DNA of 64,000 nucleotides, taken from assembly GCA_937127445.1 (NCBI GenBank), contig CAKZLY010000030.1, forward strand, positions 74,023-138,022, given 5' to 3'. Source of the stretch: an uncultured Ignavibacteria bacterium. Its GTDB lineage: Bacteria; Bacteroidota; Ignavibacteria; Kapaibacteriales; UBA2268. Position numbers and translations under genes: made by a program. The notes below the pieces were generated by a model. The model ran no database searches, was not told the origin of the DNA, and saw nothing but the letters and a program-made list of their open reading frames with translations. Position 1 is the stretch's first letter; every line of letters starts with the position of its first letter. Positions 6,676-45,553 of the stretch are shown in pieces.

Positions 6676-6888
6676 GCTGCAAGAGCCGCCACAACAACCA
6701 CCAAAATCACAAGATGAGGTCATTTCTGAAGAACCGCCTTGTGAAATTAATCCAGTAGTGGACATTACTTTTCTGTAGGCAGTGGAACCGCAGCTGGGGC
6801 ATACTATTGCACGTTCATCTTCGCGAACTTTGTGGAAAATTTCGTATTTTGCTCCACATTCTTCGCATTTGTAAGTGTAAATAGGCAT
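6667..6888 (-). CDS. FmdB-family zinc-ribbon protein (putative regulatory)
   Basis: MPIYTYKCEECG...VCPSCGS is a double CxxC motif, followed by a Gly/Ser/Cys-rich tail. 73 aa. Confidence 0.7.
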   Translation of the reverse strand: MPIYTYKCEECGAKYEIFHKVREDERAIVCPSCGSTAYRKVMSTTGLISQGGSSEMTSSCDFGGCCGGSCSLN

Positions 6889-7011
6889 TATACTACTTAA
6901 TTATTGTTTTACATTACTCTTCGTTCATATAGACGACAGATTAACTTTTATATTATGAATTATTATTTTCTTTTTAAATTGCATTTTTGTGTAATTATTC
7001 AAAGAAATAAA

Positions 7012-14500: not shown

Positions 14501-16155
14501 GTATTATATGCTTTGCCATCACCAACAAGAAAAGTGCGTTTGATACCGGGGACACCATCGAACTTGTTTTCAACGTTTTTGGGAGAAATAGTTTGCCCTT
14601 TATTGTTTTTGTAAATGTCCTTCACTCTATCGACAATTGAATAATAGCCATTGCTATCAACTGAAAAAACATCTCCTGTTGGCAACCAATAGTCGTCGTC
14701 CAAATTGGTTGGAAATGGGATAACTGAACCAATTGGGTGAGTATCGAGATAGCGAGCAACATAATGCCCGCTAATAAGCATTTCATTATTTTCAGCGAAT
14801 TTAGTATAAATGCCTGGGAGTGGCTTTCCAACTGTACCTTTTACATATCGTCCGGGTGGTGTCATAGTAATACCGCCAGTTGCTTCAGTCATCCCAAATC
14901 CACTACATAACTCGATATCGTGTTTTTGAAAGAAAGTAAATATTTTGGGGTCTAAATATCCTGCAGCGGAAAGTCCCCAATGAAGATTTTTTCCCACAAT
15001 TGAAATGATTTTTTCTCTAATTTCTTTTCTGGAAGTTAAATTTTCGGTTTCTTCCGTAATTTTATCGTAGATTTGCATCCAGCGGATTGGGACACTAATA
15101 AATCCAGTAGGGTTCACTTTGGAAAACAAAGAAAGCAAATTATCTGCCGAAGTATTACCGACAAAGACGTAAGTGCCGCCCCAATAAATCATACCAGTCA
15201 TTTCTAAGTATCTACCGAAGGTATGAAATAGAGGCAAATAGCACAGTAAAACTTCGTTGTGCCCAACTGCGGGCAATGCTGCAGCACGACAGAATCTTTT
15301 ACTGACAATGTTATAATTAGAAAATGAAACTCCTTTGGGGCGTCCTGTACTGCCAGAAGTAAACATTACAGTAATAACTTGATCGATAGAGTAGCGCTTT
15401 CGTTTATTGAGAATGAGATCAATTTCTTTATTGCTAATAGTTTTGATATAACGAGGGAGGTAGATATGGTTAGTAAGTTCTTTAATACTTTCATTTATAT
15501 GCAAAACAATCGGTTTTATCAATAAATTTTTAGAAATTTCTTCAATTTGGCGAATTCTATCGAGAGTATCGGTAACAACAACATTGAAATTCATCATTTT
15601 GGAAATAGAGGTTAGTTCGTCGTTTGTAAAATGGACGTTCAGAGGAGAGACAGGAATGTCCCAAGCGAGAGCCGCAATATCGACCATAGCACTTTCGGGG
15701 GAATTTTCGCAGAAAATGGCTAATCGAGGTGAGCCCTGAACACTTTTGAAAATAGCAGTGGCAATTTCTTTTGATTGTTGCCAGACTTGTTCGTAGCTAA
15801 AACGTTTTGGGGTAAATTTCCCCATATCGATAAAAAGAGCTTTTTGAGAAAGTTCTTCTGCTCGATAATGCAATAGGTCATTGAAAGAGAAATCACTTGC
15901 TTGGATAATTTTACAAGCGCATTCAGCCCAGTTATATCGTTGTTCTTCGTTTTCGAGAAGAGATATATAATTATGTTTTCCAGTAAATAGTAGCCACTTA
16001 TGAAGGAATTGCTTATCGGCGAAGGAGATTTCATTACTTTTGACTAATAGTTCGCTTAATTCAAGCAATTTTACAGCATTTTCTGAATTCAGCTTAATGA
16101 TATTTTGCTCAAATTGATTTAAAAATGAATGAATTTCGTCCAAAACGTTTTTCAT
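11530..16155 (-). CDS. Giant three-part protein: AMP-forming acyl-CoA synthetase/ligase domain (aa ~100-640), a ~750-aa uncharacterised module, and a C-terminal GNAT N-acyltransferase (aa ~1395-1541)
   Basis: Adenylation core motifs VMFTSGSTGRPKGV (A3), GFGMTEATG (A5), LPTGD (A7), DRVKD..K..G (A8) and LTPKGSFNRKS (A10-like). The C-terminus carries the GNAT acetyl-CoA-binding motif QYRGRGLGRAMMEDF. It is a single uninterrupted 1541-codon frame. Confidence 0.8.
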   Translation of the reverse strand: MKNVLDEIHSFLNQFEQNIIKLNSENAVKLLELSELLVKSNEISFADKQFLHKWLLFTGKHNYISLLENEEQRYNWAECACKIIQASDFSFNDLLHYRAEELSQKALFIDMGKFTPKRFSYEQVWQQSKEIATAIFKSVQGSPRLAIFCENSPESAMVDIAALAWDIPVSPLNVHFTNDELTSISKMMNFNVVVTDTLDRIRQIEEISKNLLIKPIVLHINESIKELTNHIYLPRYIKTISNKEIDLILNKRKRYSIDQVITVMFTSGSTGRPKGVSFSNYNIVSKRFCRAAALPAVGHNEVLLCYLPLFHTFGRYLEMTGMIYWGGTYVFVGNTSADNLLSLFSKVNPTGFISVPIRWMQIYDKITEETENLTSRKEIREKIISIVGKNLHWGLSAAGYLDPKIFTFFQKHDIELCSGFGMTEATGGITMTPPGRYVKGTVGKPLPGIYTKFAENNEMLISGHYVARYLDTHPIGSVIPFPTNLDDDYWLPTGDVFSVDSNGYYSIVDRVKDIYKNNKGQTISPKNVENKFDGVPGIKRTFLVGDGKAYNTLLIVPDYGDALFKDENIKNDSRNYFQKIISEANRNLATYERVVNFEILQRDFSIDFGELTPKGSFNRKSIEKNFSDIIEKLYSKDVNELHFDNLKIIIPKWFYRDLSILEEDIVVYNNGLINKETSLYLFIEPISDNKIQIGDLIYEIEGNTIDLGSLALQPKYWVGNPNLFVFAPVKANFDHRNKSISTKILCDFNNRNAYSEDLFANIRGIRNNQLIEMNRLICTIFYSEDVKALEELTKLSKLFNSFDELSLEIVRFRIQALAYHPNEEIRCLAYRTILQNDEIAETEKIFPAFLESGLTFLNNKSIEIIASSKFERRRLNALRKRLLFYRENLSWPQSETLHKQFESIFKLLVDFVKYNPEYYATVRFELANWVLHKVDPQLSSIAAKYFWILSCEYENSLEEQKFSKFPIDWENKIIFEDSLSEQEVENIKHVLLDTTFLKQSITLAFEENDFDISEISDDGIWVSKISSITQNQIYRVSVNTKQGKHYDIQTIINDNISDERNLETILWLVAVSGYPDGPSVLPSLGCARPELQARSMEFLGDLTVWEKLRQISTLKTYGQPFPKLNILKRLYTEGLSAFVRAWRYSGQKIIPGNVNPSNVVVPEIDFRDGATILSLAGWKYFDNYISLVKPMLDNFYFKAIHHYSWIREFLDINWIFNAIMEALGEDEAVTVLNNLYDELCQNDIFFLGKSLRQEINKYIAFIKDNYYMPLPLIYAIDKYYEWQNSNPNAIPEAKEQSIIELYHLYRLDRYPEIARYQLYRHTYFAYKGFYVRNAFDKLLAQMNKEKNVPATQLIELSELQSTLEDPIDREIFSKMVFPGYTKSLQYDIAKFEEKRDLSLIVKTSFKDNYGDVYIFRQPIEPAEIGILYRLFYKEKLTKVISEQDQFLVLFDSNDRIIGGIIYQIKEDNSCTLDGIVLATQYRGRGLGRAMMEDFINRMYSQGIDIIKTTFYVEAFFSKYGFKVDKRWGLLVRILNKDKYMR

Positions 16156-16286: not shown

Positions 16287-19200
16287 TTATTGCTTGATAA
16301 TTCTTTCCATAACAGTTGATTTAGGAGTAGTAATTTTAATAAAATAAGTGCCAGCAGGTTGAGAGCTTATATCAATTGTTTGCAGGATACCATTGTTAGA
16401 TGAATTGGAGTTAATTCTCATAATTTCTTGACCAGCAAGATTTGAAATAGTAATTATCGCAGAAACATCATTATTCAAATTTGCTTTGAGAGTAAAAATA
16501 CCCCGAGAAGGATTAGGAGACAGAATAATTTGAGGTTCAGATGCCCATTCGTTTTCGACACTTGTAATCAGGTTATATTCGTCGCTCATTGTGTAGCAAT
16601 CGCCGCTTTCAGCAACTTCAACAGCATATTTACCAGGAACTAAAGGACGGTATTTACGTTCGGTTGCACCTTCAATGAGTTTACCGTTTAGATACCAGCG
16701 ATATTTATTAGCAGGCGAAGCAACTAAAAATTCGTATTCCTCAGTAATGGTAGGTTTAGGTGGAATTGGATGGAAAGAGACTTCGATAAATTCGGATACA
16801 ACTTTGCAACCATCACCAGTTTCAGCAGTGCAATAATAAGTACCAGCTTCGCTTACCGTAATTTTTCGTCCTTCAACACCATTATTCCATCTATAATTAC
16901 TAAATCCAATACGAGCTGTAAATGTAACACTATCACCAATACACAAAGCAGGTGATTTCGATTTATTTATAGTCAGTTCAGGAGTTGGGAAAACTGTCAC
17001 TGAAATAATATCTGATTTAGCATTACATTCACCACCATAAGAATGGACGAATGAGTAGTTCCCATCAGTTTTTACAACGATTGATTTAGTAGTTTCGCCA
17101 GTATTCCAAACAACGAAACCATCCTGCACATCTGCAACCAGAATTACGCTGTCACCCTGACAAAATGAAGTATTGCCAAGAACAGTGATATTTGGCTTCG
17201 GTAAGTTGCAATCCAAAAGCTGAGTTTTCCAGAGACCACGTCCCCAGGTGCCTGCATAAATTTCTTTAGTAGAATTATTAATTTTCAAATCATTAATAAT
17301 AACGTTTGGAAGATTGGCACCGAAGAGTTCCCAAACATTTGAGCCATAATCAGAATAGAAAACACCTACATCAGTGCCAACGTAAATTCGGTCGGGTGAA
17401 TTTGGTTGATAAGCGATGCAATTTGCAGGAACATTTGGCAAATTACCCGATAAATTAGTATGCTTGTTACCATCAAAAACCCAAACTTTATTACCGCGTT
17501 GGAAGCCGGATTTAGTATAATAAACTACATTTGGGTTGAGAGGGCTAACTTCCATATCGGAGATTGCTAAATCGGAAGTAAAGTATTGAGACCAGGAAAT
17601 ACCATTATCAGTTGTTCGCCAGACAGTAGTATAAGTAGCAGCATAAACATAATTTGAATTAGTCGGGGCTACTGCAATAGTTTGCAAAGTCGTATTTGTT
17701 CCAAAATTAGAAATTTTGACAAATGAACCAGCAGAACCATAAGCAAGGGAACGCCAAACATTGTAATAACCAACGTAGACTACATTAGGCTTCTGTGGGT
17801 CGAGAGCCAGTGGAGCAGTCCAAGCTCCAGATTCACCATTAGTTTGATATTGATTTATCATATTAGTAAATGATGCACCACCATCAGTGGAACGGCGAAA
17901 ATCACCATTATAAAGAGAACCATAAATACGACGTGGATCAGTTGGATCGATGGCACAATCCATTCCATCACCAGCGAGTACGTGTATCCAATTATTTTCT
18001 TTGAAAAGGCTTGAACCATTATCTTGAGAACCACCAATAAATAAACTGGGGTCGGCTTCACAAATACCAATACGGTAGAATTGGGTAATGGACATACCGT
18101 CGCTAATGAAATTCCATGAATTACCACCATTGGTAGTATAATCGATTCCACCATCGTGTCCAGCGTATAACCTACCATCAGGAGCAAAAATAAGATCATG
18201 AATATCAGCGTGAACTTGCGGGGCACCATCTCCATACCAATGAGCAACAATTTGCCAGGTTGCCCCCATACTTTGAGATTTCCAGATATTAACGCCACCG
18301 ACATAGATTATACTTGGATTTGTCGGAGAAATAGCAAGAGCTAAATCGTATTGTCCTTGTCCTTTATTCATATCTTTCCCATTGCTATTCCAGCCAAGAA
18401 GATTTAATCCATCGCCTTTTTGATAGAGGGTCGTCCAATTTTCGCCGGTATCTTCGGATGCAATAAGTGAGAGGAATTGCATTGTATTTCTTTCGGCACT
18501 CAGAGCATAAACCATATTCGGGTCGGCAGGAGTAACTTCAATAGCAGTGCGAATAGCATTTGGGATATTCCAGACTTTGCGCCAGGTTTCGCCCATATCG
18601 GTGGATTTATAAATATCAGTTCCCAAAGATGAATAAGTAAAAGTAGAAGCATAAAGTACGTTAGGATTGTCGGGTTTTTGCTCTAAATCAATGAAAAATC
18701 CACTTTGCTTGTTGAACCAGGTTCTGCCACCATCGGTAGTTTTTAAGATTCCGGAATTACTTGTTGCAATAACTACATTTTCATTAGTTGGAGAAACGAA
18801 CATCTTGCCAAAAAGTTTGCGTTCTTCGAGTGCGTAAGCGGCATTGGTAAATTCCCAGGTCTGTCCATCATTAGTAGATTTAATAATACCGACACCATAA
18901 TAGTTTTGAGCAGCAGAGGAACCATCCATATCACCGGTAGCAACATAGATGACGTTCGGATTACTGCGAGCAATTTGGATGTCAGAAACACCCAAAGACA
19001 TCACCTCGGTTTTTGGGTAATTAAACCAAGTCTTGCCTTTATCGGTTGAGCGCCAAACTCCACCAGTTGCAGAACCTGCCCAAATATCGTTTGGGCGAGA
19101 AGAATGGAATCTCACAACGTTAACTCTTCCCAAACCTTGGTCTCTAACGCTGGAATTCAAGCTACCAGGACGGGTAACTGGACCGATAAGCTGCCAGGTG

Positions 19201-19526
19201 CGGCTTTGGGTGGAATTAAGTTTCTTGAAACCTTCTTGATAACGTTGCCATTCTTTGAAAAGTTCAATTGCCTGGGGAAATTCACCTGTTGGGTAAACAC
19301 GAGGAGCCCAAAAATTCTCCCAGCGTTTGAATTGTTTCCATCCTTTGCGTTGGTCCTCGGGCATATTATTGTAGAAGTTGTTTTTAGCACTCTGAATTTT
19401 ATAAAAATTCTCTTGCTTAGTGGGATTTTCGTATAAGCTATTGTAGATTTGGGCAGAGGAAATGTATGGCGCTAAAAGAACAAAAAGCGCTGAAATAAAG
19501 ACGAGTTTTGAAATTGAATTTTTCAT
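16287..19526 (-). CDS. Secreted BNR/Asp-box repeat beta-propeller protein (GH74/sortilin-like) with Ig-like domains and a type-IX-secretion C-terminal sorting domain
   Basis: Signal peptide after MKNSISKLVFISALFVLLAPYISSA. At least nine S/TxDxGxTW Asp-box repeats (STDKGKTWF, STNDGQTWE, TTDGGRTWF, STDMGETWR, SEDTGENWT, ...). The C-terminal ~80 aa match the Por secretion-tail pattern (..NLAGQEI....GTYFIKITT..). Confidence 0.8.
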   Translation of the reverse strand: MKNSISKLVFISALFVLLAPYISSAQIYNSLYENPTKQENFYKIQSAKNNFYNNMPEDQRKGWKQFKRWENFWAPRVYPTGEFPQAIELFKEWQRYQEGFKKLNSTQSRTWQLIGPVTRPGSLNSSVRDQGLGRVNVVRFHSSRPNDIWAGSATGGVWRSTDKGKTWFNYPKTEVMSLGVSDIQIARSNPNVIYVATGDMDGSSAAQNYYGVGIIKSTNDGQTWEFTNAAYALEERKLFGKMFVSPTNENVVIATSNSGILKTTDGGRTWFNKQSGFFIDLEQKPDNPNVLYASTFTYSSLGTDIYKSTDMGETWRKVWNIPNAIRTAIEVTPADPNMVYALSAERNTMQFLSLIASEDTGENWTTLYQKGDGLNLLGWNSNGKDMNKGQGQYDLALAISPTNPSIIYVGGVNIWKSQSMGATWQIVAHWYGDGAPQVHADIHDLIFAPDGRLYAGHDGGIDYTTNGGNSWNFISDGMSITQFYRIGICEADPSLFIGGSQDNGSSLFKENNWIHVLAGDGMDCAIDPTDPRRIYGSLYNGDFRRSTDGGASFTNMINQYQTNGESGAWTAPLALDPQKPNVVYVGYYNVWRSLAYGSAGSFVKISNFGTNTTLQTIAVAPTNSNYVYAATYTTVWRTTDNGISWSQYFTSDLAISDMEVSPLNPNVVYYTKSGFQRGNKVWVFDGNKHTNLSGNLPNVPANCIAYQPNSPDRIYVGTDVGVFYSDYGSNVWELFGANLPNVIINDLKINNSTKEIYAGTWGRGLWKTQLLDCNLPKPNITVLGNTSFCQGDSVILVADVQDGFVVWNTGETTKSIVVKTDGNYSFVHSYGGECNAKSDIISVTVFPTPELTINKSKSPALCIGDSVTFTARIGFSNYRWNNGVEGRKITVSEAGTYYCTAETGDGCKVVSEFIEVSFHPIPPKPTITEEYEFLVASPANKYRWYLNGKLIEGATERKYRPLVPGKYAVEVAESGDCYTMSDEYNLITSVENEWASEPQIILSPNPSRGIFTLKANLNNDVSAIITISNLAGQEIMRINSNSSNNGILQTIDISSQPAGTYFIKITTPKSTVMERIIKQ

Positions 19527-19660
19527 TTTGGACCACTCTATATTATGAATAATTAATACCATAATTAGTTTACAAAATTAACAAAAAATTAGTAATTTAT
19601 GTCATTATAAATGAGACAATTAATATCATAAATTAGTTACAAATATAGAAATTATTATCT

Positions 19661-24602: not shown

Positions 24603-27083
24603 TTAATGATAAACCTGCACACAGTTGGTTTTGCTTGCTGCAATATTAAGCACTCGATTACAATTGTCGAGCAAAGAATCTAAATCGTCCGCAGGTGAAA
24701 TTTGAGCAATACCAATGCTTAAAGTAACTGTGAAGCGACGACCATCAATTTCCAGCACTGAGATGGCAGCCTTATTTCTGATATTTTCGGCCCAGAATTT
24801 TGCTTTATCGACGCTTTGTCCTATTAATATAGCACCGATAATATTTGTATCGAGCCTGCCAATTACATCATATTCGTGTATTGATTTATTCAAGATTGAA
24901 ACAATATGATGAAAAATCTGCTCAAATTTACCGTTGTCATCTTCATTACTATAAGCAGCATATTTATCAATTGCTATCAAGCAAAAGCTAACAGTAGATT
25001 TGAAATCGCGAACGCGAGTAACTTCTTCCTGTAATCTACGGAAGAATGCGTAATTATTCATAAGCCCAGTGTGTGGGTCAATAATTGCACTTGTGTGGAA
25101 AAGCTGAGTTAGTTTAAATCTATCAATCGAGTGAGCGGCTTCGCGAGCGAGCAGTTCTAATAAATCAATATCGTAATTATCCATTTCGCTCAATGGACCA
25201 TCGAAAAAGATTGCTCCATATACTCCGGATTCGGACTTGATAGGAATAGAGACAAAAAATGAACTTTCAAAAGGATATTCTTTGACTGATACACGGGACA
25301 TTTTTGTTTGGACAGGTGTTTCGACAAAAGTCTGATATTTTAAGATAGATTGACCGAGTAAAGTTCTGTACAAGTCGACTGGTTCATTTCTGAAACTGAT
25401 AGGAAATTCATATTTAGTGAAATAATCATAAATATAATATCCTTCCCGTTTTTCGTCGTAGAGACAAATTCCAAAGGTATAATTCTCGTACAAACTTAAT
25501 ATTGCTTCGAAAAGGGCACGTGAAATTGTTTCTTCGGTTGCATCTGATTTTGAAGAAATTTCAGCAAATTTTTGAACAGCTCTTAATGTTTTATCTGAAC
25601 GAATTAGATCGTATTTTTCTGTGTAACTTTTGATTAACCCGCTAATTAACTTGGAGAACTGGCCTAAAAAGGTAATAGTTGCAGCATCGTAGGCATCATT
25701 TTCGTTAGTATCGCAAGTTAGAATTCCAATCACTTGATTTTCGTAAAAAACAGGAATACCTACAAATGAAGAAGTGCCCGAGGGTTCGCTGTAGTAAGGT
25801 ATCAGATCAAGTTCAGCAGATGGGTTGATTTCTGTTAGTATTTCGGGTTTTGCATTGAATGCAATTTGACTGATAATATCGTTGCCCATCGGGATTTTAG
25901 TTTCATCAATTATCTTTGAAGGAACATTTGTAACATAAGATTCGAGAATAAGGTGATTTTTTTCAAAATTAATAAAAGTAAAAGCAGTAGTTCGGGATTT
26001 AATAACAAGAGGAATTACATACAAAATCCGAGAAAGCAATGCATCAAACTCTTTTCTTGGTTCATCAATTTCAATGAGTTCATCGTCAAACAAGTTTTGA
26101 GGCAGTTCGATTTGTTTTTTCTTGAAGTCTGTTTTGGGTTGTTCTTCGGCGGTTTCGGCAATTGTTTTTTCGGTGGTGAGGTCAGGTTCATTTTCAACGG
26201 CTTTATTTTGTTGTGAAACAATTGGTTCCGAAATTTCCGAAGTAGTTGCAGATCGTTCTCTATGGGTTAAGGTTATTTCATCTAGTTGAACAAATTCTTG
26301 TGTTTCAATATTTTCAATTGTCTGAGATGCTTCCTGGTTACTAATTGATTTTTTACTTTCAGTATCATCTGAATGAAATTGCTCAACTTGCGGGACCTCT
26401 TCAACAACGATGTTTTCTTCTAATTGAAGATTGGCATCTTCTTCGACAAATTCAGATGATTTATCCTGAACAATAATTTCCGGTTCAGTAGTTTGAGGGG
26501 CAGCAGCAGAGGAAGTAATAGATATATCTTTGGTCTCTTTTACAGGTTCGTTTTGGGAGACATTATCATCAATTTTATCACTCAAACTTTCGGCTTTTGC
26601 TTCGAGTTGTTCGGGTTGCTCAATTTGGGAGACTTCAACATTTTCTTCATCTTTTGGACTAGGAATAAACTCATTTTTTGGTTGTTGTGGAATTTCAGAT
26701 TTTGAGGCGCTTCGAGTAGTTTTGCTGACAATACGGAAACCTTCATCGGCACCCATAGTATGTTCGGTAGAAATTTTATCAATATCAATGGAGGGGTTGA
26801 AGTTCTCAATTGTCTGGCGTTTAGCGGAAGCATCTTTTATTACGGTCATTTTAATATTCTGAGTTTCGGGAATATTGAATTTGTTTGATTCGACAATTTC
26901 GGAAAGTCTCTGGGAAATCATAATAATCAATGCTAAAGCACCGAGCACGGCAGAGCTAATGCCAATGAGCTTAATAGCAAGCCCTTCGAGAAATATAGCA
27001 ATGAGAATACCACAAATAATAATTAAAAGAGCTAATATATCACCTGGTTGTATAACATCTTGAATTCGTATTTTTTTAGCCAT
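24603..27083 (-). CDS. Membrane-anchored signalling protein: 2 TM helices, a ~300-aa acidic disordered linker, GAF-type sensor domain(s) and a C-terminal GGDEF-family domain with a degenerate active-site motif (GRLDT)
   Basis: N-terminal hydrophobic hairpin. aa ~90-330 are E/Q/S/T-rich low complexity. The C-terminal GGDEF fold blocks HTGLMNNYAFFRRLQEEV...IAIDKYAAY...VIGRLDTNIIGAIL place the GG(D/E)EF position as RLDTN, and no RxxD I-site is visible. Confidence 0.7.
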   Translation of the reverse strand: MAKKIRIQDVIQPGDILALLIIICGILIAIFLEGLAIKLIGISSAVLGALALIIMISQRLSEIVESNKFNIPETQNIKMTVIKDASAKRQTIENFNPSIDIDKISTEHTMGADEGFRIVSKTTRSASKSEIPQQPKNEFIPSPKDEENVEVSQIEQPEQLEAKAESLSDKIDDNVSQNEPVKETKDISITSSAAAPQTTEPEIIVQDKSSEFVEEDANLQLEENIVVEEVPQVEQFHSDDTESKKSISNQEASQTIENIETQEFVQLDEITLTHRERSATTSEISEPIVSQQNKAVENEPDLTTEKTIAETAEEQPKTDFKKKQIELPQNLFDDELIEIDEPRKEFDALLSRILYVIPLVIKSRTTAFTFINFEKNHLILESYVTNVPSKIIDETKIPMGNDIISQIAFNAKPEILTEINPSAELDLIPYYSEPSGTSSFVGIPVFYENQVIGILTCDTNENDAYDAATITFLGQFSKLISGLIKSYTEKYDLIRSDKTLRAVQKFAEISSKSDATEETISRALFEAILSLYENYTFGICLYDEKREGYYIYDYFTKYEFPISFRNEPVDLYRTLLGQSILKYQTFVETPVQTKMSRVSVKEYPFESSFFVSIPIKSESGVYGAIFFDGPLSEMDNYDIDLLELLAREAAHSIDRFKLTQLFHTSAIIDPHTGLMNNYAFFRRLQEEVTRVRDFKSTVSFCLIAIDKYAAYSNEDDNGKFEQIFHHIVSILNKSIHEYDVIGRLDTNIIGAILIGQSVDKAKFWAENIRNKAAISVLEIDGRRFTVTLSIGIAQISPADDLDSLLDNCNRVLNIAASKTNCVQVYH

Positions 27084-29283: not shown

Positions 29284-29440
29284 AAAAATTAAAAAATACA
29301 CAAAATAAAAAAGTAAATTACTCAAAAATAGATAAAGGAACAAATTCAACTAAAAACCCTTTCCTTCAAAGATTAAGATTTGTATAAATGTCTTGTGAAT
29401 TTAAATTCGAATATTGTCTATTAAAATAAAAAAGGAGCTT

Positions 29441-29468
29441 TTTAATACTCCTTTTGAAATCAGAAATA
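29441..29468 (-). terminator. Terminator hairpin downstream of the FadL-like OMP gene
   Basis: aggag(29444-29448)...ctcct(29459-29463), with an A-run 5' on the plus strand (a U-run for the minus transcript). Confidence 0.4.
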
Positions 29469-29478
29469 AAAAAACTAA

Positions 29479-30897
29479 TTAATATCTGTAAGAAACTCCG
29501 AGCAAAATATTCAGAGGTTTTTGTTTCAAGATGTAATTTGATAGAGTAATTGGATTTTCATCATTTCCATAGGCAGTGCGTTGCTCGGAAAAGTCAGTCC
29601 AGCGGAGTACTCCATCAATGCGAACTCCTTTGGATAGATAGAGGCTACCACCGAGAGAAAAAGTAGATTTAGCTGCGTTTGGAATATCTAATTGGTAAGG
29701 AGAAGTAGTTTTTGCGTAGCTTGCTCTTGCTTCGAGAGGCAGTGCAGGGAATTTATATTCAGCACCGAACCCCCAGGTAGTTTGACCGACAAGGTGTCTT
29801 ATAATCATACGATTTAGAATATCAAACTGTTCGGCAACTTCTGCTGATACATCAGAAAACTTCATTTGAGTAACGTCCTGATATTCAACTCCTGTTGAAA
29901 AAGTAAGACCAAGCAGATGAAAAGAGACTCCCGCACTATACACAAAAGGTGTTCTAATATTATAGGAATTGTTACCCTGCTGGGTTGTATCGAATCTGTC
30001 GACAATACCTTGGGGGTTTTTGTCGAAAATCACATCGTGCGAAACCGAGAATTTTTCATCAACTTGATACCAGGTAGGTAGTTTTATGGAGAAAGAAATT
30101 CTCATAAAGTCTTCGATTTTACCTATTAGACCTAACTGAGCAGTAATTCCAGAAACATTTTGTTTTATTTTTTCTTTAACTATGAGTTTATCGAAATCGT
30201 CAATTTGCCATTTGTTGTAAATATTAAGTTCATCCCATTCAATGAATTCTCTTGAATACTCGAAGGAACCCCATTTACCGGTAATAGAGAAGCCAAGAGA
30301 GACGTTCTCGCCAACGTCAATCCCCAAACCCCCGGTTATGTTGTGGGTGCCACCCATTTCGTCAACGAAAGAGGTTTGGCGAAGAGAATCTTTGATATTG
30401 GTATTTCCGCTAATATCAGCAAGAAGCAAATCATAAGTCCAGCGTTTTTTTGCCTGGGACTGCTGAAGAATATAACTTGATTGAGTATTAAATATATCGT
30501 AGTCGTAACTTTTTTTGAAATCGTTATCTCTGAAATATCCAATAGCAACCGTAGTAATACCATTAGTGCCACTAATTGGAGAAGCTAATGCTAAATGGCT
30601 CAAATATTCATTATTAATATTAAAATTACTCTTTTTGCTTAAAATATTAACTTCATTACCAATATGGGAAAAGCCAAAACCAACGGAAAATTCATTTTTA
30701 GGGATAAGTGCTAATCCAGCAGGGTTAGCAACCAGCGCATTTATATCATCGGCAATTCCGATGTAAGAAACGTTTAGCCCTACTGCACGAGAAGTGATAA
30801 AATGCTGTGTGTTTGCGTAACGCAAAGCATCTTCAATAAACTGAGCTTTTGCAAAAGATACTGACAAGAAAATAAATATAAATATAGTTTTTTTCAT
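29479..30897 (-). CDS. FadL/TodX/OMPP1-family outer-membrane hydrophobic-compound channel
   Basis: Signal peptide MKKTIFIFIFLSVSFAKAQ. N-terminal hatch segment with the family NPAG motif (DDINALVANPAGLALIP). ~470 aa beta-barrel ending LGVSYRY. Start trimmed to 30897; the longer ORF would overlap the upstream lipoprotein gene. Confidence 0.65.
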   Translation of the reverse strand: MKKTIFIFIFLSVSFAKAQFIEDALRYANTQHFITSRAVGLNVSYIGIADDINALVANPAGLALIPKNEFSVGFGFSHIGNEVNILSKKSNFNINNEYLSHLALASPISGTNGITTVAIGYFRDNDFKKSYDYDIFNTQSSYILQQSQAKKRWTYDLLLADISGNTNIKDSLRQTSFVDEMGGTHNITGGLGIDVGENVSLGFSITGKWGSFEYSREFIEWDELNIYNKWQIDDFDKLIVKEKIKQNVSGITAQLGLIGKIEDFMRISFSIKLPTWYQVDEKFSVSHDVIFDKNPQGIVDRFDTTQQGNNSYNIRTPFVYSAGVSFHLLGLTFSTGVEYQDVTQMKFSDVSAEVAEQFDILNRMIIRHLVGQTTWGFGAEYKFPALPLEARASYAKTTSPYQLDIPNAAKSTFSLGGSLYLSKGVRIDGVLRWTDFSEQRTAYGNDENPITLSNYILKQKPLNILLGVSYRY

Positions 30898-30910
30898 AGT
30901 AACACCTAAT

Positions 30911-31945
30911 TTATCTTGTTCGTCTGTTAGCAGGTTCTTGTTGATTTTTTTGTTGTGCTGGTTTCGAATCATTGTTAGAACTGCGTGATGGAGCATCGCT
31001 CTGGCGAGGCGAATCGTTACTTGCGGGAGCAATTCTATCGCGCGATGGAGTATTATTGGTTCTATCAGGAGTTGGTTCAGATATAGTTCTGCGAGTAGGT
31101 GGTGCGGGCTGCTCGCCTTTTTGAGAACTTTCATATTTAGTGTCGGAGGAGGGACTATCGCTTTGTTTTATTTCTCTATCGGAAATATTATCCTTTGTTC
31201 GCTCATTTCGTGGAGTATTGAAAGCATCAGAGTTCGGACGCGACGATGAACGGACATTTTTATCGCTGGGTTCATTCTGAAAAATTGTCTTTGAACCTGT
31301 TTGAGTAGAAGGGACTACATCTGTTCCACTGCGACGATTTACGGGCTGATTGCTTTCGTTAGTTGCACCGATATTTGAGTAGCTTCCTCGGCTTGGACCG
31401 AAATCTCTATATGTGTCTTTTCGTGGTTTCTGCGTTATATGTTTATATTCAGGATACCAACCAGGATGATAGCAATAAGGGTAGTAATATGGATATGGTG
31501 TATAGACAGGATAAGGGTAATAAATTACGGCATAGTTATATGGGCGATATCTTGAAAAATAAGACCAGTCGTAGTAATAATCATAACCATAGGAAAAATA
31601 AATATTGCCGTAAAGAGGAGCATAAATTAAGGAATATCGAGGAGGTGCCCACCAGGGATAATATCCGTTATATGTGAGCGGATGGTAAAAATAGTAGTTA
31701 TTCTCTACTACAGTTGTTTTTTCGTTTATAGGATTCTGGTTAACGTAATATGAATAATCATTGGTTTTAGTTGACTTATCAACACTACTGTTATTCCCAT
31801 TGCTAACGGTAGTAGGATTATCTACTATTGTAGGTTTGTTGTTGTAACCATAATAATTATCTGTTTTGTTCATAGTTGAACAAGAAGAAAGAAGTATAGT
31901 TATAATAAACAACGAACCAAGCGATATGTAAAGTTTCGTTTTCAT
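30911..31945 (-). CDS. Lipoprotein with an extreme Tyr/Pro-rich repeat core and a Ser/Arg/Pro/Asp-rich disordered C-terminal half
   Basis: Lipobox LLSSCSTM. aa ~60-170 are dominated by Y, P and W (YPYPVYTPYPYYYPYCYHPGWYPEY). The C-terminal 170 aa are low-complexity polar. It sits directly upstream of, and co-oriented with, the FadL-like OMP (13-nt spacer). Confidence 0.55.
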   Translation of the reverse strand: MKTKLYISLGSLFIITILLSSCSTMNKTDNYYGYNNKPTIVDNPTTVSNGNNSSVDKSTKTNDYSYYVNQNPINEKTTVVENNYYFYHPLTYNGYYPWWAPPRYSLIYAPLYGNIYFSYGYDYYYDWSYFSRYRPYNYAVIYYPYPVYTPYPYYYPYCYHPGWYPEYKHITQKPRKDTYRDFGPSRGSYSNIGATNESNQPVNRRSGTDVVPSTQTGSKTIFQNEPSDKNVRSSSRPNSDAFNTPRNERTKDNISDREIKQSDSPSSDTKYESSQKGEQPAPPTRRTISEPTPDRTNNTPSRDRIAPASNDSPRQSDAPSRSSNNDSKPAQQKNQQEPANRRTR

Positions 31946-42250: not shown

Positions 42251-42437
42251 AATAGAACCTTTAAATAAAGTTAAACAGAATTATTATCTATAACAAAATT
42301 ACATTTATTTATTGTATTAACCAAAAAATTAATTAACTCTAAATAAATATTTAGTCTCGAATAAATCAACGATTAATTTGAAACTTTATTGTTCTAAATA
42401 CGTTTTAGAAAATATCAAAAATTTAAAAAAGGAGTAT

Positions 42438-44738
42438 ATGAAAAATTATCTATTTATTTTTTTATTGATAACAATGGTGGGAAATTTATTTTCTCAAACT
42501 TCTTTAGGGACAATTTCTGGCACAGTTTCGGAAGAGAAGACAAAAGAAAATGTAATTTCTTCGACAGTTGTATTATATAAGGATTCAATATCCAGCAAAC
42601 CATTTCGTGGGACATATACTAACAAATTTGGTTATTATAGTTTCACTCAGATTCCCAATGGAGAATACATAATAGTAGCCAGAGGTGTTGGATATCAGCA
42701 ATATTCGAAGAGAATTACGCTAAAAGAGGGAGAAAATATACGTCTGAACATAAAAATGAAAACATCTGATGTTGTAACGGAAGAAGTATTAGTAACAGCG
42801 GAGCGATCTTCGGAGGAAGCAATTTCAAGAATATCGGCGGTAAATATATCACCTAATTTCATTTTCAAATTACCCTCGCTTGGAGGCGAAACAGATGTAT
42901 TCAGGGCATTGCAAACTTTGCCGGGAGTAAAGCAATCGAGCGAACTATCGAGTGGACTATATGTGAGAGGTGGTTCGCCCGATCAAAATCTTTATCTACT
43001 TGATGGAGTAATTGTATATAATCCCAATCACTTAGGCGGATTTTTGAGTGTATTCAATGGCGACGCCCTTCGCGACATTAAGTTAATAAAAGGAGCTTTT
43101 CCTGCTGAATACGGCGGAAGATTATCGAGCGTTCTTGATATGACGATGAAAGAAGGCAGAAAAGACCGTTTTGCAGCTGATGGCGGTATTAGTTTAATTA
43201 GTTCTCGTCTTACTCTGGAAGGCCCCATAGGTGAAAATACGTCATTTATGTTGTCGGGAAGAAGAATGTATTTAGATATTCTAACTGCTATGTTTGTCTC
43301 CAAGGATGAAGTTCCAAATTATTATTTTTATGATTTGAATGCAAAAGTTAATCATAAAATTTCGGATAATTCTCATATTTTTCTGAGTGGTTTCTTGTGT
43401 CGGGACGTCTTGGAATCACCCGATGAAGAAGAAATGAAGTTTGATATTAACTGGGGAAATAAAACGTCGAATTTTCGATGGCTGTATATTGTATCGCCGA
43501 TATTATTTACAAATTTTTCGCTTATTTATACAGATTATACATTCAGAACAGACATTTACGATAAAAAGAACGTTTCAAATAATTTTATAATTAAATCTCA
43601 AATTCGAGATTGGACTTTTCGAGCAGAAGCACAATATTTCCCATCGAAAAACCATAAGATAAAGACAGGGCTTGAAGCAATTAATCACCGCTTTTTAGCT
43701 AAAACAGCTTATAATTTTGAAAACAATCTGGAAATTCCATTCAACAGCAAAGACGCAACGAGTATGGAACTATCTTATTATCTACAAGATGAATGGGAAA
43801 TATCTGATAGATTTACTGCAAATATTGGTTCGCGACTATATTATTTTGAAGAAGCAAACTATTTTCGCTACGAACCACGATTATCTGCAACTTATAAAAT
43901 TGCAGATAATACAAGTTTTAAAACTTCGGTTGCTATGGCTCATCAGTTTCTACACTTGATTATTAGAAATGATATTTCAATAATGACAGACCTTTGGTTC
44001 CCATCAACGAAAAATATTATTCCGAGCCGTTCAACGCAAGGAGTTATTGGATTAGAGCAATTATTTGACGACGGGAAGTATTTGCTTTCGTTAGAAGCGT
44101 ACTATAAAAAAATGAATAACCTGTATGAATATAAGGATTCGGCAACATTTTCTTTTGGGATTCCACTTGAAAATCAATTCACAAGAGGTAACGGAGAGGC
44201 TTATGGAGTGGAAGTATTTTTCAATAAACGTTTGGGGAATCTAACTGGATGGATAGGCTATACACTATCCTGGACAAAACGTAAATTTAATGAACTCAAC
44301 GAAGGGAAGCCATTTTATCCGAGGTACGACCGTCGCCACGATGTTAACATAGTTTTAGTATATGAAATCAGTCCATCTTGGGAAATAGGTGCAACTTGGT
44401 ATTATGGAACAGGTCAGGCTTATACAATGCCGACTGGTTCTTTCCGTTTTGAAGAGATAGGTTTATCGCCATACGAAGATATAAAATATCAGTATACAGA
44501 ACGAAATGGAGCACGATTACCTGCTTTCCATAAATTGGATCTAAATATTATTCATCATTTTGAATGGCTTACGATACCCTGGTCAATATCACTTAACATA
44601 TACAATGCTTACAACAGACGTAACCCATTCGCTTGGTATATTTCAACTGATTATGATGGGATGACTGAAACAAAGAAATTGAAGCAGTTAACACTATTCC
44701 CACTGATCCCAACCATTGGATTAAATTTCAAAATATAG
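42438..44738 (+). CDS. TonB-dependent outer-membrane receptor with an N-terminal carboxypeptidase-regulatory-like domain
   Basis: Signal peptide, CarbopepD_reg-like segment (GTISGTVSEEKTKENVISSTVVLY...NGEYIIVARGVGYQ), then TonB plug motifs (DGVIVYNPNHLGGF). The ATG at 42438 follows GGAG. Confidence 0.75.
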   Translation: MKNYLFIFLLITMVGNLFSQTSLGTISGTVSEEKTKENVISSTVVLYKDSISSKPFRGTYTNKFGYYSFTQIPNGEYIIVARGVGYQQYSKRITLKEGENIRLNIKMKTSDVVTEEVLVTAERSSEEAISRISAVNISPNFIFKLPSLGGETDVFRALQTLPGVKQSSELSSGLYVRGGSPDQNLYLLDGVIVYNPNHLGGFLSVFNGDALRDIKLIKGAFPAEYGGRLSSVLDMTMKEGRKDRFAADGGISLISSRLTLEGPIGENTSFMLSGRRMYLDILTAMFVSKDEVPNYYFYDLNAKVNHKISDNSHIFLSGFLCRDVLESPDEEEMKFDINWGNKTSNFRWLYIVSPILFTNFSLIYTDYTFRTDIYDKKNVSNNFIIKSQIRDWTFRAEAQYFPSKNHKIKTGLEAINHRFLAKTAYNFENNLEIPFNSKDATSMELSYYLQDEWEISDRFTANIGSRLYYFEEANYFRYEPRLSATYKIADNTSFKTSVAMAHQFLHLIIRNDISIMTDLWFPSTKNIIPSRSTQGVIGLEQLFDDGKYLLSLEAYYKKMNNLYEYKDSATFSFGIPLENQFTRGNGEAYGVEVFFNKRLGNLTGWIGYTLSWTKRKFNELNEGKPFYPRYDRRHDVNIVLVYEISPSWEIGATWYYGTGQAYTMPTGSFRFEEIGLSPYEDIKYQYTERNGARLPAFHKLDLNIIHHFEWLTIPWSISLNIYNAYNRRNPFAWYISTDYDGMTETKKLKQLTLFPLIPTIGLNFKI

Positions 44739-44746
44739 GTGATAAA

Positions 44747-45553
44747 ATGAAAAAAATATACATTGTTCTATCATTATTATTAGGCTTTGGATTATCTTCG
44801 TGCGAAGAAGAAGTAACGAGCGTTACTTTACCATATCGCGAGCAGTTGGTAATTCGGGCAGTTCTTCAAGCAGGGGAAAAAATAGAAGACATTCGAGTCG
44901 AAAGAACAATTCCACCGTTAGAAAATTATACTGTTGAGAAAGCATTAGTCAAAGATGCTGTTTTGATTATTGAAGATGGTGAGCAATTCGACACATTAAC
45001 ATACAAAAACGGTTTCTATAATTCGAAATTAACAGCACAGCCAGGAAAACTATATAAATTATACGCATATTGGAAGCAACATAAAGCATACGGAGAGACA
45101 ATAGTTCCGGAGCCCGTTAGTTTTGACAATGTTTTTGTTGAGTTTCAAAAATTATTCGAAGGATATTATAAGGCATCAGTATACACATATATAGCACCTA
45201 ACGAAAACTATGTATATACGGCTGGAATATCATTCGATAATATAATTTATGGCAATTACGATGAAATATATACTTATTCGCGACGCACATCAGATAATAA
45301 ATTAAAAATATATTTTGCATATGTTGGTGGGAATGATACACTTGTATTAAAAAAGCGATTAAACAATTATAAATTTGTAATTTTGAATTATGACAAGCAA
45401 TATTATGATTATTTTATAACTCGAAATAATGGCAATAGCGACGATGATATTTTTGGTAATGTTGGCTCAAACGTTCGCTGGAATATTAAAGGAGACGGAA
45501 TTGGTATGTTCATCGGAAGCAATATAGTTGCAAAAAAAGCTAAAATAAATTAA
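44747..45553 (+). CDS. Lipoprotein, DUF4249-like partner of the TonB-dependent receptor
   Basis: Lipobox LLGFGLSSCEEE, 8 nt downstream of the receptor gene. This pairing is typical of Bacteroidota-type receptor loci. Confidence 0.45.
   Translation: MKKIYIVLSLLLGFGLSSCEEEVTSVTLPYREQLVIRAVLQAGEKIEDIRVERTIPPLENYTVEKALVKDAVLIIEDGEQFDTLTYKNGFYNSKLTAQPGKLYKLYAYWKQHKAYGETIVPEPVSFDNVFVEFQKLFEGYYKASVYTYIAPNENYVYTAGISFDNIIYGNYDEIYTYSRRTSDNKLKIYFAYVGGNDTLVLKKRLNNYKFVILNYDKQYYDYFITRNNGNSDDDIFGNVGSNVRWNIKGDGIGMFIGSNIVAKKAKIN

What the first reader, a model, noticed from the sequence alone, without database searches (positions are those of the whole stretch)
29479..31945. Operon of an extremely Tyr/Pro-rich lipoprotein and a FadL-family outer-membrane channel
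The upstream gene (30911-31945) encodes a lipoprotein whose aa ~60-170 are dominated by Tyr, Pro and Trp in irregular repeats (YPYPVYTPYPYYYPYCYHPGWYPEY, YGYDYYYDWSYFSRYRPYNY). A ~170-aa Ser/Arg/Pro/Asp-rich disordered tail follows. Thirteen nucleotides downstream, the second gene encodes a FadL/TodX-type beta-barrel with the NPAG hatch motif. FadL channels import hydrophobic molecules by lateral diffusion. I do not know a characterised partner for them that is a Tyr-rich lipoprotein. Tyr-rich low-complexity proteins are typically adhesive, cross-linkable (dityrosine) or aromatic-ligand binding. The pair could be a surface capture and uptake device for aromatic or hydrophobic substrates. Alternatively the lipoprotein could be a structural outer-membrane component whose export depends on the barrel.
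Basis: partly seen in the sequence, partly recalled or inferred. Interest (0 to 1): 0.65.

Follow-up and report, generated by a model that had tools for sequence, protein, structure and literature searches.

The report
Tyrosine-rich lipoprotein paired with BamG-like barrel
This is a real two-gene unit, conserved across several related phyla, that pairs a FadL-fold outer-membrane barrel closest to the newly described BAM subunit BamG with an unannotated, probably disordered, tyrosine-rich lipoprotein; it most likely helps build the outer membrane and does not import aromatic compounds.

Summary
A 344-aa lipoprotein (30911-31945, minus strand) has 36% Tyr over aa 83-168, followed by a Ser/Arg/Pro-rich tail. 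Thirteen nucleotides downstream lies a 472-aa FadL-fold barrel (29479-30897) with an NPAG hatch motif. Both are real genes under purifying selection.

The pair is strongly syntenic. The lipoprotein sits directly upstream of the barrel in 47 of 54 informative species genomes (Kapabacteria, Ignavibacteria). Five of five look-ups that started from distant lipoprotein relatives, including Ignavibacteriaceae and KSB1, again found a FadL-family barrel downstream. Flanking genes differ and are never catabolic.

NCBIfam BamG is the best curated model for every barrel tested, though all score far below its cutoff. The barrel has the conserved ~11-residue N-terminal extension that distinguishes BamG from transport FadLs. 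A 2025 Nature paper lists adjacent BamG and BamH genes in Ignavibacterium and other FCB phyla.

The lipoprotein is not a BamH. It has no DUF4270 domain, no acidic surface-export signal and no predicted fold.

Best reading, at about 0.5: a BAM-associated BamG-like barrel whose lipoprotein partner is a disordered, aromatic-rich protein in the place of BamH. That makes it a new variant of a known kind. The aromatic-uptake idea is not supported.

The parts
30911..31945 (-). Gene for the 344-aa Tyr-rich lipoprotein (stop codon included)
   Evidence: ORF; composition; purifying selection; conserved upstream of the barrel in 47 of 54 informative loci
31880..31945 (-). Type II signal peptide and lipobox LSS|C (aa 1-22; Cys22 is the predicted lipid-anchored residue)
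   Evidence: Sequence; Cys22 is invariant in 37 relatives; 149 of 156 family members have a lipobox
31832..31861 (-). Conserved N-proximal motif DNYYGYNNKP (aa 29-38; family consensus [DE][YF][YF]G[YF]NNxP), proposed site for docking on the barrel
   Evidence: Alignments A3 and A4; the docking role is an inference by analogy with the BamH N-terminal tail
31442..31699 (-). Tyr/Pro/Trp-rich core, aa 83-168 (36% Tyr), with family motifs GYYPWW and YYPYPVY
   Evidence: dN/dS 0.12 against L006; AF2 pLDDT about 30 with no secondary structure
31385..31408 (-). Most conserved motif of the family, RDFGPSRG (aa 180-187; R180 and G183 invariant, R186 in at least 90%)
   Evidence: Alignment of 37 relatives
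30914..31384 (-). Ser/Arg/Pro/Asn/Thr-rich tail with net positive charge, ending in the conserved basic C-terminus ...NRRTR
   Evidence: 153 of 156 family members have a basic C-terminus, and the C-terminal half is net positive in all 149 members with a lipobox; dN/dS 0.19
30898..30910 (-). 13-nt intergenic spacer (ATTAGGTGTTACT) containing an AGGTG Shine-Dalgarno-like element; no terminator between the two genes
29479..30897 (-). Gene for the 472-aa FadL-fold, BamG-like outer-membrane barrel
30817..30843 (-). Mature N-terminus QFIEDALRY (aa 19-27), part of an extension of about 11 residues relative to E. coli FadL; Q19, D23, A24 and R26 are invariant
   Evidence: Alignment A1; register against FadL; comparison with the FjBamG sequence
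30715..30726 (-). NPAG hatch motif (aa 58-61)
   Evidence: N58, A60 and G61 invariant, P59 in at least 90%
29430..29455 (-). Terminator-like hairpin followed by a T-run, 24 nt after the barrel stop codon; probable end of the operon

Best explanation
The two genes are an operon for an outer-membrane module of the BamG/BamH type. The barrel is the Kapabacteria counterpart of BamG, the FadL-fold subunit that binds the back of BamA in the Bacteroidota beta-barrel assembly machinery. Its transport path is expected to be occupied by its own conserved, extended N-terminus, so it would act as a scaffold and not as a channel.

The upstream lipoprotein is its dedicated partner. It would be held by its lipidated Cys and the conserved [DE]YFGYNNxP segment next to the barrel. 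Its Tyr/Trp/Pro-rich core and basic Ser/Arg tail would form a flexible, non-globular element in place of the folded BamH canopy.

Shown: gene reality, the operon arrangement, wide synteny, the FadL fold, BamG as the best curated model, the N-terminal extension, and the lack of BamH homology or predicted fold in the lipoprotein.

Inferred: association with BamA, direct contact between lipoprotein and barrel, the side of the membrane the lipoprotein faces, and any chaperone-like role of the aromatic region.
For: (1) Operon. The gap is 13 nt, there is no terminator between the genes, and a terminator-like hairpin follows the barrel.

(2) Synteny. The lipoprotein lies directly upstream of the barrel in 47 of 54 informative genome loci. 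It persists where both flanks differ (L004). Five of five look-ups started from distant lipoprotein relatives found a Toluene_X barrel downstream: P0126, P0128, P0175 (Ignavibacteriaceae), P0140 (KSB1) and P0217.

(3) Barrel identity. NCBIfam BamG (NF053685) is the top model for the window barrel (E 4.7e-11) and for 10 other family members (E 1e-10 to 2e-24), ahead of PorV/PorQ; no other transporter-type model scored better (FilD, an OmpP1/FadL model, hit two members only weakly, E about 0.003-0.006). The top Foldseek hit of the AF2 model is B. thetaiotaomicron BamG, 9hiv_F, E 3.9e-19.

(4) N-terminal extension. It is about 11 residues longer than in E. coli FadL and nearly invariant. Silale et al. 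name this feature as the one that distinguishes BamG from transport FadLs (PMC12578637).

(5) Published adjacency. Liu et al. list BamG and BamH as adjacent genes in Ignavibacterium album (IALB_1455/1454), Salinibacter, Fibrobacter, Gemmatimonas and Caldithrix, and for the BamG2/H2 paralogues.

(6) Gene context. It is housekeeping and variable, and never a degradation cluster.

(7) Organism type. The genome has T9SS cargo and a SusC-like receptor. These traits correlate with BamG/H-type BAM (PMC12611786).

(8) Precedent for a Tyr-rich element. Bacteroidota BamA carries a flexible extracellular loop EL3 of unknown function, enriched in Tyr, Gly and Asn, inside the BAM dome (PMC12578637). A disordered Tyr-rich element at BAM therefore already exists.
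Against: - The BamG model scores 42 bits against a cutoff of 250. A profile of the barrel family does not find the BamG chains in the PDB by sequence, and finds E. coli FadL only weakly. hhalign against FjBamG is marginal, E 0.04.
- Fold comparison does not separate BamG from FadL.
- The barrel lacks the C-terminal tail that contacts BamD in FjBamG.
- The lipoprotein shows no similarity to FjBamH/DUF4270.
- The lipoprotein lacks the acidic export signal found in BamH-K: 0 or 1 acidic residue at +2 to +6 in all 149 members with a lipobox. It may therefore face the periplasm.
- Seven loci lack the upstream lipoprotein.
- I could not check whether these genomes also encode a canonical BamG/BamH pair, nor whether IALB_1454 belongs to this lipoprotein family.
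- BamG2/H2 paralogues in Bacteroidota are dispensable and not seen in BAM pull-downs, so being BamG-like does not prove BAM membership.
Confidence: 0.5

Rival explanations
1. The pair is a self-contained display device. The FadL-like barrel exports or anchors its own disordered lipoprotein, for example by releasing it through the lateral opening. The Tyr-rich, basic protein then acts as a surface or envelope structural element, such as an adhesin, a matrix or LPS binder, or an envelope tether. BamA is not involved.
For: - The two-gene linkage is strict across phyla.
- The lipoprotein lacks the usual acidic surface-export signal, although a canonical CEEE-type lipoprotein is encoded in the same window. 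If it reaches the surface it would need its own route.
- A disordered chain is easier to thread than a folded one.
- The conserved basic tail and C-terminal RxR suggest binding to an anionic partner.
- BamG2/H2-type pairs exist outside the core BAM.
Against: - No FadL-family protein is known to export a lipoprotein.
- The barrel's nearly invariant extended N-terminus matches the BamG feature that plugs the lateral opening.
- Seven lineages keep the barrel without an adjacent lipoprotein, which is odd for a dedicated exporter.
Confidence: 0.2
2. The barrel is a working FadL/TodX-type channel for hydrophobic or aromatic molecules, and the Tyr-rich lipoprotein captures ligand at the surface. This would resemble Vibrio VolA-FadL.
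For: - FadL fold, NPAG hatch motif and a weak Toluene_X hit.
- The N-terminal hatch region is the part most similar to E. coli FadL.
- There is a precedent for a surface lipoprotein co-expressed with FadL (PMC3656444).
- Aromatic residues can stack on aromatic or sugar ligands (general knowledge).
Against: - No fatty-acid, aromatic or hydrocarbon catabolic genes lie nearby in any lineage.
- BamG is the best curated model for every barrel tested (a transporter-family model, FilD, appears only as a weak lower-ranked hit in two members).
- The extended, conserved N-terminus is the feature that blocks the transport path in BamG.
- The lipoprotein has no enzyme or binding domain and no acidic surface-export signal.
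Confidence: 0.1
3. The barrel is a PorV/PorQ-like component of the type IX secretion system, and the lipoprotein is a T9SS accessory or anchored cargo.
For: - Weak PorV_fam, PorV2 and PorQ hits in the N-terminal hatch region (E 0.002 for the window barrel, down to 5e-13 in relatives).
- The organism has T9SS cargo.
Against: - Scores are far below the cutoffs and always weaker than BamG, and for most members tested the best-matching stretch is only the roughly 40-70-residue hatch segment (two relatives also align over longer parts of the barrel).
- No PorV structure appears among the 50 Foldseek matches listed.
- The lipoprotein has no T9SS C-terminal domain.
- No por genes lie next to the pair.
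Confidence: 0.05

Closest known systems
BamG-BamH module of the Bacteroidota BAM complex (F. johnsoniae Fjoh_1412/Fjoh_0823, PDB 9N2D; B. thetaiotaomicron BT_4367/BT_4306, PDB 9HIV; paralogous operons BamG2/H2)
   Same: - A FadL-fold barrel with a conserved N-terminal extension of 10-12 residues.
- BamG is the best curated HMM and the best structural hit.
- A lipoprotein gene lies immediately next to the barrel gene, as in bamH2-bamG2 and in the non-Bacteroidota FCB phyla listed by Liu et al.
- The organism has a T9SS and a SusC-like receptor.
   Different: - The barrel scores 42 bits against the 250-bit cutoff and lacks the C-terminal tail that contacts BamD.
- The lipoprotein has no DUF4270 domain, no acidic export signal and no predicted fold. 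It is 36% Tyr in its core and has a basic, disordered tail of about 170 residues.
- Association with BamA is untested.
FadL/TodX/TbuX hydrophobic-substrate channels (PF03349)
   Same: The 14-strand barrel fold with an N-terminal hatch, the NPA(G) motif, and comparable Foldseek scores (E 1e-16 to 1e-18).
   Different: The N-terminus is about 11 residues longer and nearly invariant. The Pfam score is just under the gathering threshold. There is no catabolic gene context. A lipoprotein partner is conserved across phyla.
VolA-FadL of Vibrio cholerae (surface lysophospholipase lipoprotein co-transcribed with a FadL homologue; PMC3656444)
   Same: A lipoprotein and a FadL-family barrel in one operon. 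This is the closest precedent for a capture-and-uptake reading.
   Different: VolA is a folded enzyme, and the system is tied to lipid use. Here the lipoprotein has no catalytic or other recognisable domain and is predicted to be non-globular.
Tyr/Gly/Asn-rich extracellular loop EL3 of Bacteroidota BamA (38 residues with 13 Tyr in B. thetaiotaomicron; PMC12578637)
   Same: A flexible, Tyr-rich, unresolved segment of unknown function at the BAM folding site in the same superphylum.
   Different: EL3 is a loop of BamA itself, not a separate lipoprotein. Whether Kapabacteria BamA has such a loop was not checked.

Membership tests
FadL/OMPP1/TodX superfamily (PF03349) | Beta-barrel with an N-terminal hatch domain (FadL fold) | tested here: met
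   The AF2 model has pLDDT 88. Its 26 best Foldseek PDB hits are all BamG, FadL, TodX, TbuX or CymD, with E 4e-19 to 2e-11 and TM 0.5-0.6.
FadL/OMPP1/TodX superfamily (PF03349) | NPA hatch motif | tested here: met
   NPAG at aa 58-61. N58, A60 and G61 are invariant and P59 is present in at least 90% of 26 homologues.
FadL/OMPP1/TodX superfamily (PF03349) | Pfam gathering score | tested here: inconclusive
   28.8 bits against a cutoff of 29.7, E 5.8e-7, matching the hatch region only. Many close homologues carry a precomputed PF03349 hit.
FadL/OMPP1/TodX superfamily (PF03349) | Role as a substrate channel, reflected in linkage to uptake or catabolic genes | tested here: not met
   Neighbours are housekeeping genes and vary between lineages. 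No degradation genes occur in any of the loci examined.
BamG (NCBIfam NF053685) | HMM score above the equivalog cutoff (250 bits) | tested here: not met
   42.4 bits, E 4.7e-11. It is the best model but far below cutoff. Relatives score 41-86 bits. FjBamG itself scores 461 bits.
BamG (NCBIfam NF053685) | N-terminal extension of about 10-12 residues relative to transport FadLs, highly conserved | tested here: met
   39 residues precede NPA, against 32 in E. coli FadL and 42 in FjBamG. In the HMM register, profile position 40 aligns with FadL residue 10. QFIEDALRY is nearly invariant.
BamG (NCBIfam NF053685) | C-terminal tail beyond the last strand, which contacts BamD | tested here: not met
   The protein ends at the terminal strand...GVSYRY. 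FjBamG continues with NDKWFVKSKFN.
BamG (NCBIfam NF053685) | Partner lipoprotein encoded next to the barrel gene (as in bamG2/H2 and in the FCB phyla of Liu et al., Supplementary Table 1) | tested here: met
   A 13-nt gap in the window, and 47 of 54 informative loci.
BamG (NCBIfam NF053685) | Stable binding to the back of the BamA barrel; essentiality | not testable with these tools
   This needs pull-down, cryo-EM or depletion experiments, or a multimer prediction.
BamH (Pfam DUF4270 / NCBIfam NF053686) | DUF4270 domain | tested here: not met
   None of 37 family members hits DUF4270 at E <= 0.1, and the window lipoprotein plus five other upstream lipoproteins (LP1 and LP2 types) scanned against NCBIfam match no model, BamH_fj included. 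hhalign of the family against FjBamH gives probability 0.06%. FjBamH itself scores DUF4270 E 8e-68 and NF053686 627 bits.
BamH (Pfam DUF4270 / NCBIfam NF053686) | Lipoprotein with an N-terminal lipidated Cys | tested here: met
   LSS|C lipobox. Cys22 is invariant, and 149 of 156 family members have a lipobox.
BamH (Pfam DUF4270 / NCBIfam NF053686) | Acidic lipoprotein export signal (at least 2 D/E within six residues after the Cys) | tested here: not met
   The sequence after the Cys is CSTMNKT. Of the 149 members with a lipobox, 124 have 0 and 25 have 1 acidic residue at +2 to +6, and none has 2. FjBamH starts CDKDFN.
BamH (Pfam DUF4270 / NCBIfam NF053686) | Folded, elongated two-domain structure forming the canopy | tested here: inconclusive
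   AF2 gives mean pLDDT 38.9 and no secondary structure beyond the signal peptide. The alignment had only 10 sequences, so folding on binding cannot be excluded.
PorV/PorQ (NCBIfam NF033709) | HMM score above cutoff (90 bits) | tested here: not met
   17.7 bits, E 0.002, covering aa 36-78 only.

The most novel reading that the evidence does not exclude
The Tyr-rich lipoprotein is a non-homologous stand-in for BamH. It would be an intrinsically disordered, aromatic-rich BAM subunit, conserved from Kapabacteria and Ignavibacteria to KSB1, tethered beside a BamG-like barrel. It would act as a flexible holdase or 'aromatic brush' for nascent outer-membrane proteins, doing as a separate protein what the unexplained Tyr-rich EL3 loop of BamA may do in Bacteroidota. 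That would make it the first disordered subunit of an outer-membrane protein insertion machine, and it would offer a way to study what Tyr-rich elements do at BAM.
Probability: 0.3. Interest if true: 0.75.

Novelty: new variant of a known kind. Interest (0 to 1): 0.55.

Why it matters
BamG and BamH were described only in 2025, and only in Bacteroidota proper. Their status elsewhere in the FCB superphylum rests on a table of locus tags. This locus suggests that in Kapabacteria, Ignavibacteria and KSB1 the barrel is kept while the lipoprotein at its side is a different kind of protein: unannotated, compositionally extreme and probably disordered.

If the module is part of BAM, the extracellular canopy would not be a universal solution. 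Tyr-rich flexible elements would then recur at the folding site, as they do in BamA EL3.

If the module is not part of BAM, it is a widespread lipoprotein-barrel device of unknown function in the outer membrane. The profile search found 447 protein clusters, though that profile mixes two subfamilies and is affected by composition.

On the practical side, the lipoprotein family is labelled 'hypothetical protein' (once 'YgcG') in every named database record seen here. In three MAG loci a run of Ns breaks the gene.

Tried and rejected
- **Frame or composition artefact.** Rejected. The ORF is in frame in all relatives, dN/dS is 0.12-0.29 by region, and there is no tandem DNA repeat.
- **BamH homology.** I recovered the FjBamG and FjBamH sequences from the SEQRES records of the paper's supplementary PDB file. 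The lipoprotein showed no similarity to FjBamH by Pfam, by NCBIfam (window lipoprotein and five other upstream lipoproteins scanned) or by hhalign. phmmer with FjBamH and FjBamG against all ORFs of 67 fetched loci plus the window returned nothing.
- **PDB sequence searches.** The barrel (single sequence, the L051 relative and the family profile) gave only weak FadL hits. The lipoprotein profile gave chance-level hits.
- **Word-indexed homologue search with the lipoprotein.** It found only 7-10 proteins. The exhaustive profile search was needed.
- **One homologous lipoprotein family?** Homology between the Kapabacteria type (YFGY motif) and the CYTQ type is not firmly established. A Kapabacteria-only HMM scores CYTQ-type proteins weakly and with a large compositional bias term. 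The count of 447 clusters comes from a profile that included both types.
- **Locating I. album IALB_1454/1455** to test directly whether the published 'BamH' is a Tyr-rich lipoprotein.
- **Complex prediction of lipoprotein plus barrel.** Not attempted. Fused or locus-derived sequences are not accepted by the structure tool.
- **Sigma-70 promoter scan.** No more sites than in shuffled sequence, so uninformative.
Full report
**1. What is in the sequence**

Two co-oriented minus-strand genes occupy 29479-31945.

The upstream gene (30911-31945) encodes 344 aa. It starts with a type II signal peptide and an LSS|C lipobox.
- aa 23-82 are Asn/Thr/Ser-rich.
- aa 83-168 are 36% Tyr, 15% Pro and 4.7% Trp.
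- aa 171-344 are rich in Ser, Arg, Pro, Asn, Thr and Asp, and the protein ends in NRRTR.

The Tyr density is far outside the window's range. There are 31 Tyr in 86 residues. The next-highest stretch in any frame has 17, and the background is 4.3%. No DNA tandem repeat underlies the region.

The stop codon is followed by 13 nt containing AGGTG, then by the ATG of a 472-aa protein. That protein has a type I signal peptide (AKA|Q) and an NPAG motif. A terminator-like hairpin follows its stop codon, and none lies between the genes. The mechanical 551-aa ORF that overlaps the lipoprotein gene is an artefact of an upstream in-frame ATG.

**2. Both genes are real and they travel together**

The barrel has 118 word-indexed homologues at 34-92% identity in Kapabacteria and Ignavibacteria MAGs.

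A genome scan returned 59 species-level loci. I looked for a same-strand ORF ending just upstream of the barrel in each.
- 47 of 54 informative loci have a lipoprotein with a Tyr/Trp-rich core, a Ser/Gly/Arg tail and a basic C-terminus. Three of these are interrupted by runs of N in the low-complexity region.
- Seven loci lack it. Four are high-GC Kapabacteria with alanine dehydrogenase upstream, and three are gut MAGs.
- The pair persists where both flanks differ (L004).

Against close relatives the lipoprotein gene shows purifying selection in all regions. dN/dS is 0.12 in the Tyr core and 0.19 in the tail. For the barrel it is 0.04.

**3. The lipoprotein family**

Thirty-seven upstream lipoproteins share six features:
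- the Cys;
- an N-proximal [DE][YF][YF]G[YF]NNxP motif;
- WxNP[LM];
- Y[VI]PV[IV]VPWW;
- an RxFGxxRG motif, with R180 and G183 invariant;
- a C-terminal RxR.

An exhaustive profile search of 1.84 billion representatives gave 447 clusters at E <= 1e-3 and 121 at E <= 1e-10, nearly all 250-460 aa. Of the 156 family sequences then held (the 150 listed hits plus earlier homologues), 149 have a lipobox and 153 have a basic C-terminus. All 149 members with a lipobox have a net positive C-terminal half.

There are two N-terminal types: C[ST]..YFGYNN (45 members) and CYTQ[LIV] (92 members). Sequence homology between the two types is weak once composition is corrected for. They may be one family or two convergent ones.

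Named members are all 'hypothetical protein', from Ignavibacteriaceae and candidate division KSB1, or carry a spurious 'YgcG' label.

Starting from five such proteins, the gene downstream was a Toluene_X barrel in every case. In the two Ignavibacteriaceae-type loci a second, smaller lipoprotein lies in between.

No member hits any Pfam family convincingly. No NCBIfam model matched the lipoproteins I scanned there: the window protein and five other upstream lipoproteins. AF2 gives pLDDT 39 and no secondary structure, though the alignment had only 10 sequences.

**4. The barrel**

AF2 gives a confident model, pLDDT 88. The top Foldseek PDB hit is B. thetaiotaomicron BamG (9hiv_F, E 3.9e-19). It is followed closely by a P. 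aeruginosa FadL homologue, F. johnsoniae BamG (9n2d_B), E. coli FadL, TodX and P. gingivalis BamG. The fold is therefore FadL, but fold alone does not separate BamG from the transporters.

Among curated HMMs, BamG (NF053685) is the best model for the window barrel (E 4.7e-11) and for ten other members from Kapabacteria, Ignavibacteriaceae, KSB1 and unplaced MAGs (E 1e-10 to 2e-24). In some it covers up to 344 of the 397 model positions. All scores are far below the 250-bit cutoff. PorV/PorQ models mostly match the hatch segment (two relatives align over more of the barrel), and always more weakly than BamG.

The mature N-terminus QFIEDALRY is nearly invariant. It makes the segment before NPA 39 residues long, against 32 in E. 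coli FadL and 42 in FjBamG. In register this is an extension of about 11 residues. Both 2025 papers describe exactly such a conserved extension as the mark of BamG. It threads through the lateral opening and touches BamA and the BamH N-terminus.

The BamD-contacting C-tail of FjBamG is absent here.

**5. Link to published work**

Liu et al. (Nature 2025, PMC12611786) and Silale et al. (Nat Microbiol 2025, PMC12578637) showed that Bacteroidota BAM contains the FadL-like BamG and the surface lipoprotein BamH.

Supplementary Table 1 of Liu et al. lists BamG and BamH as neighbouring locus tags in I. album (IALB_1455/1454), S. ruber, F. succinogenes, G. aurantiaca, C. abyssi and C. pinensis, and for the BamG2/H2 paralogues. 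The paper does not say how these homologues were identified.

The window pair has the same gene arrangement, and Ignavibacteriaceae MAGs carry the Tyr-rich lipoprotein next to the barrel. It is therefore likely, but unverified, that the I. album entry refers to this module.

I rebuilt the FjBamG and FjBamH sequences from the SEQRES records of the paper's supplementary model. FjBamH is a DUF4270/NF053686 protein that begins CDKDFN. The Tyr-rich family shows no similarity to it. It also lacks the acidic export signal that BamH-K carry. The same window encodes a normal CEEE-type lipoprotein next to a SusC-like receptor.

Silale et al. also report a flexible, unresolved EL3 loop of BamA, enriched in Tyr, Gly and Asn, inside the dome. 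Its function is unknown.

**6. Interpretation**

The most economical reading is a BamG-type barrel with a dedicated lipoprotein partner of a new kind. This is a variant of the BamG/BamH module in which a folded canopy protein is replaced by a lipid-anchored, aromatic-rich, basic and probably disordered chain.

The steps from 'BamG-like' to 'bound to BamA', and from 'adjacent gene' to 'physical partner', are inferences. So is the side of the membrane the lipoprotein faces.

Rivals:
- A BAM-independent device that displays or anchors the lipoprotein (0.2).
- A true hydrophobic-substrate channel with a capture lipoprotein, as in Vibrio VolA-FadL (0.1). The gene context and the N-terminal extension count against it.
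- A T9SS PorV/PorQ-like role (0.05).

**7. Verdict**

The finding is a new variant of a recently discovered kind of system. Its interest is moderate to good, because the partner protein is unusual, unannotated and widespread.

Noticed in passing
L064:6056-6580, L068:1700-2185, L053:5025-5813, L063:5197-5895: In Ignavibacteriaceae-type loci a second, smaller lipoprotein (160-260 aa, starting CYT[VI]) lies between the Tyr-rich lipoprotein and the barrel, or directly upstream of the barrel. It has a short Tyr-rich patch, a PWW motif and a basic Ser-rich tail. Two copies (L053, L063) carry a CxxCH motif (CFSCH, CSSCH), which is the haem c attachment signature. If I. album has the same layout, the published 'BamH' IALB_1454 could be this small protein.
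   Followed up: partly
L036, L039, L043, L059 (barrel at about 5920-7380 in the first, second and fourth; at 1303-2772 in L043); L040, L048, L049: Seven lineages keep the barrel, with its AQF[IV]EDALR N-terminus, but have no Tyr-rich lipoprotein within about 3.5 kb upstream or 5 kb downstream. In the four high-GC Kapabacteria, alanine dehydrogenase is the upstream gene. I could not tell whether the lipoprotein is encoded elsewhere or has been lost.
   Followed up: partly
L016, L021, L028 (upstream of the barrel): Runs of 100-110 N fall inside the low-complexity part of the lipoprotein gene and split the ORF. Genes of this family are likely to be broken or missed in MAG annotation.
   Followed up: partly
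window 42378-44738 (+) and 44747-45553 (+): A SusC-like TonB-dependent receptor (CarboxypepD_reg + Plug + barrel) is followed by a 268-aa lipoprotein that starts C-E-E-E, a canonical acidic surface-export signal. It is the second most Tyr-rich ORF of the window at 9.7%. This shows that the organism uses the usual signal, which the Tyr-rich lipoprotein lacks.
   Followed up: partly
window 16287-19562 (-): A 1091-aa protein with Sortilin/Vps10-type repeats and a Por_Secre_tail, i.e. cargo of the type IX secretion system. The genome therefore has a T9SS.
   Followed up: no
window 24603-27083 (-): An 826-aa GAF-GGDEF protein. It has an N-terminal membrane segment and an acidic, Glu/Ser/Gln-rich low-complexity linker of about 250 aa. 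It is conserved next to mazG and purD in the closest relatives (L001, L002).
   Followed up: no
window 11530-16155 (-): A 1541-aa fusion protein with an AMP-binding (acyl-CoA synthetase-like) N-terminal part and a C-terminal GNAT acetyltransferase domain. About 800 residues between them are unassigned.
   Followed up: no
window 29479-31134 (-): The longest mechanical ORF for the barrel (551 aa) starts 237 nt upstream of the real start and overlaps the lipoprotein gene by 224 nt. Automatic callers that use the longest ORF would misannotate the pair.
   Followed up: yes
window 30841-30843 (barrel Gln19) and FjBamG residue 1: The predicted mature N-terminus of the barrel is an invariant Gln, as in FjBamG (QQGTAS...). 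From my own knowledge, N-terminal Gln after signal-peptide cleavage is often cyclised to pyroglutamate in Bacteroidota envelope proteins. I did not test this here.
   Followed up: no
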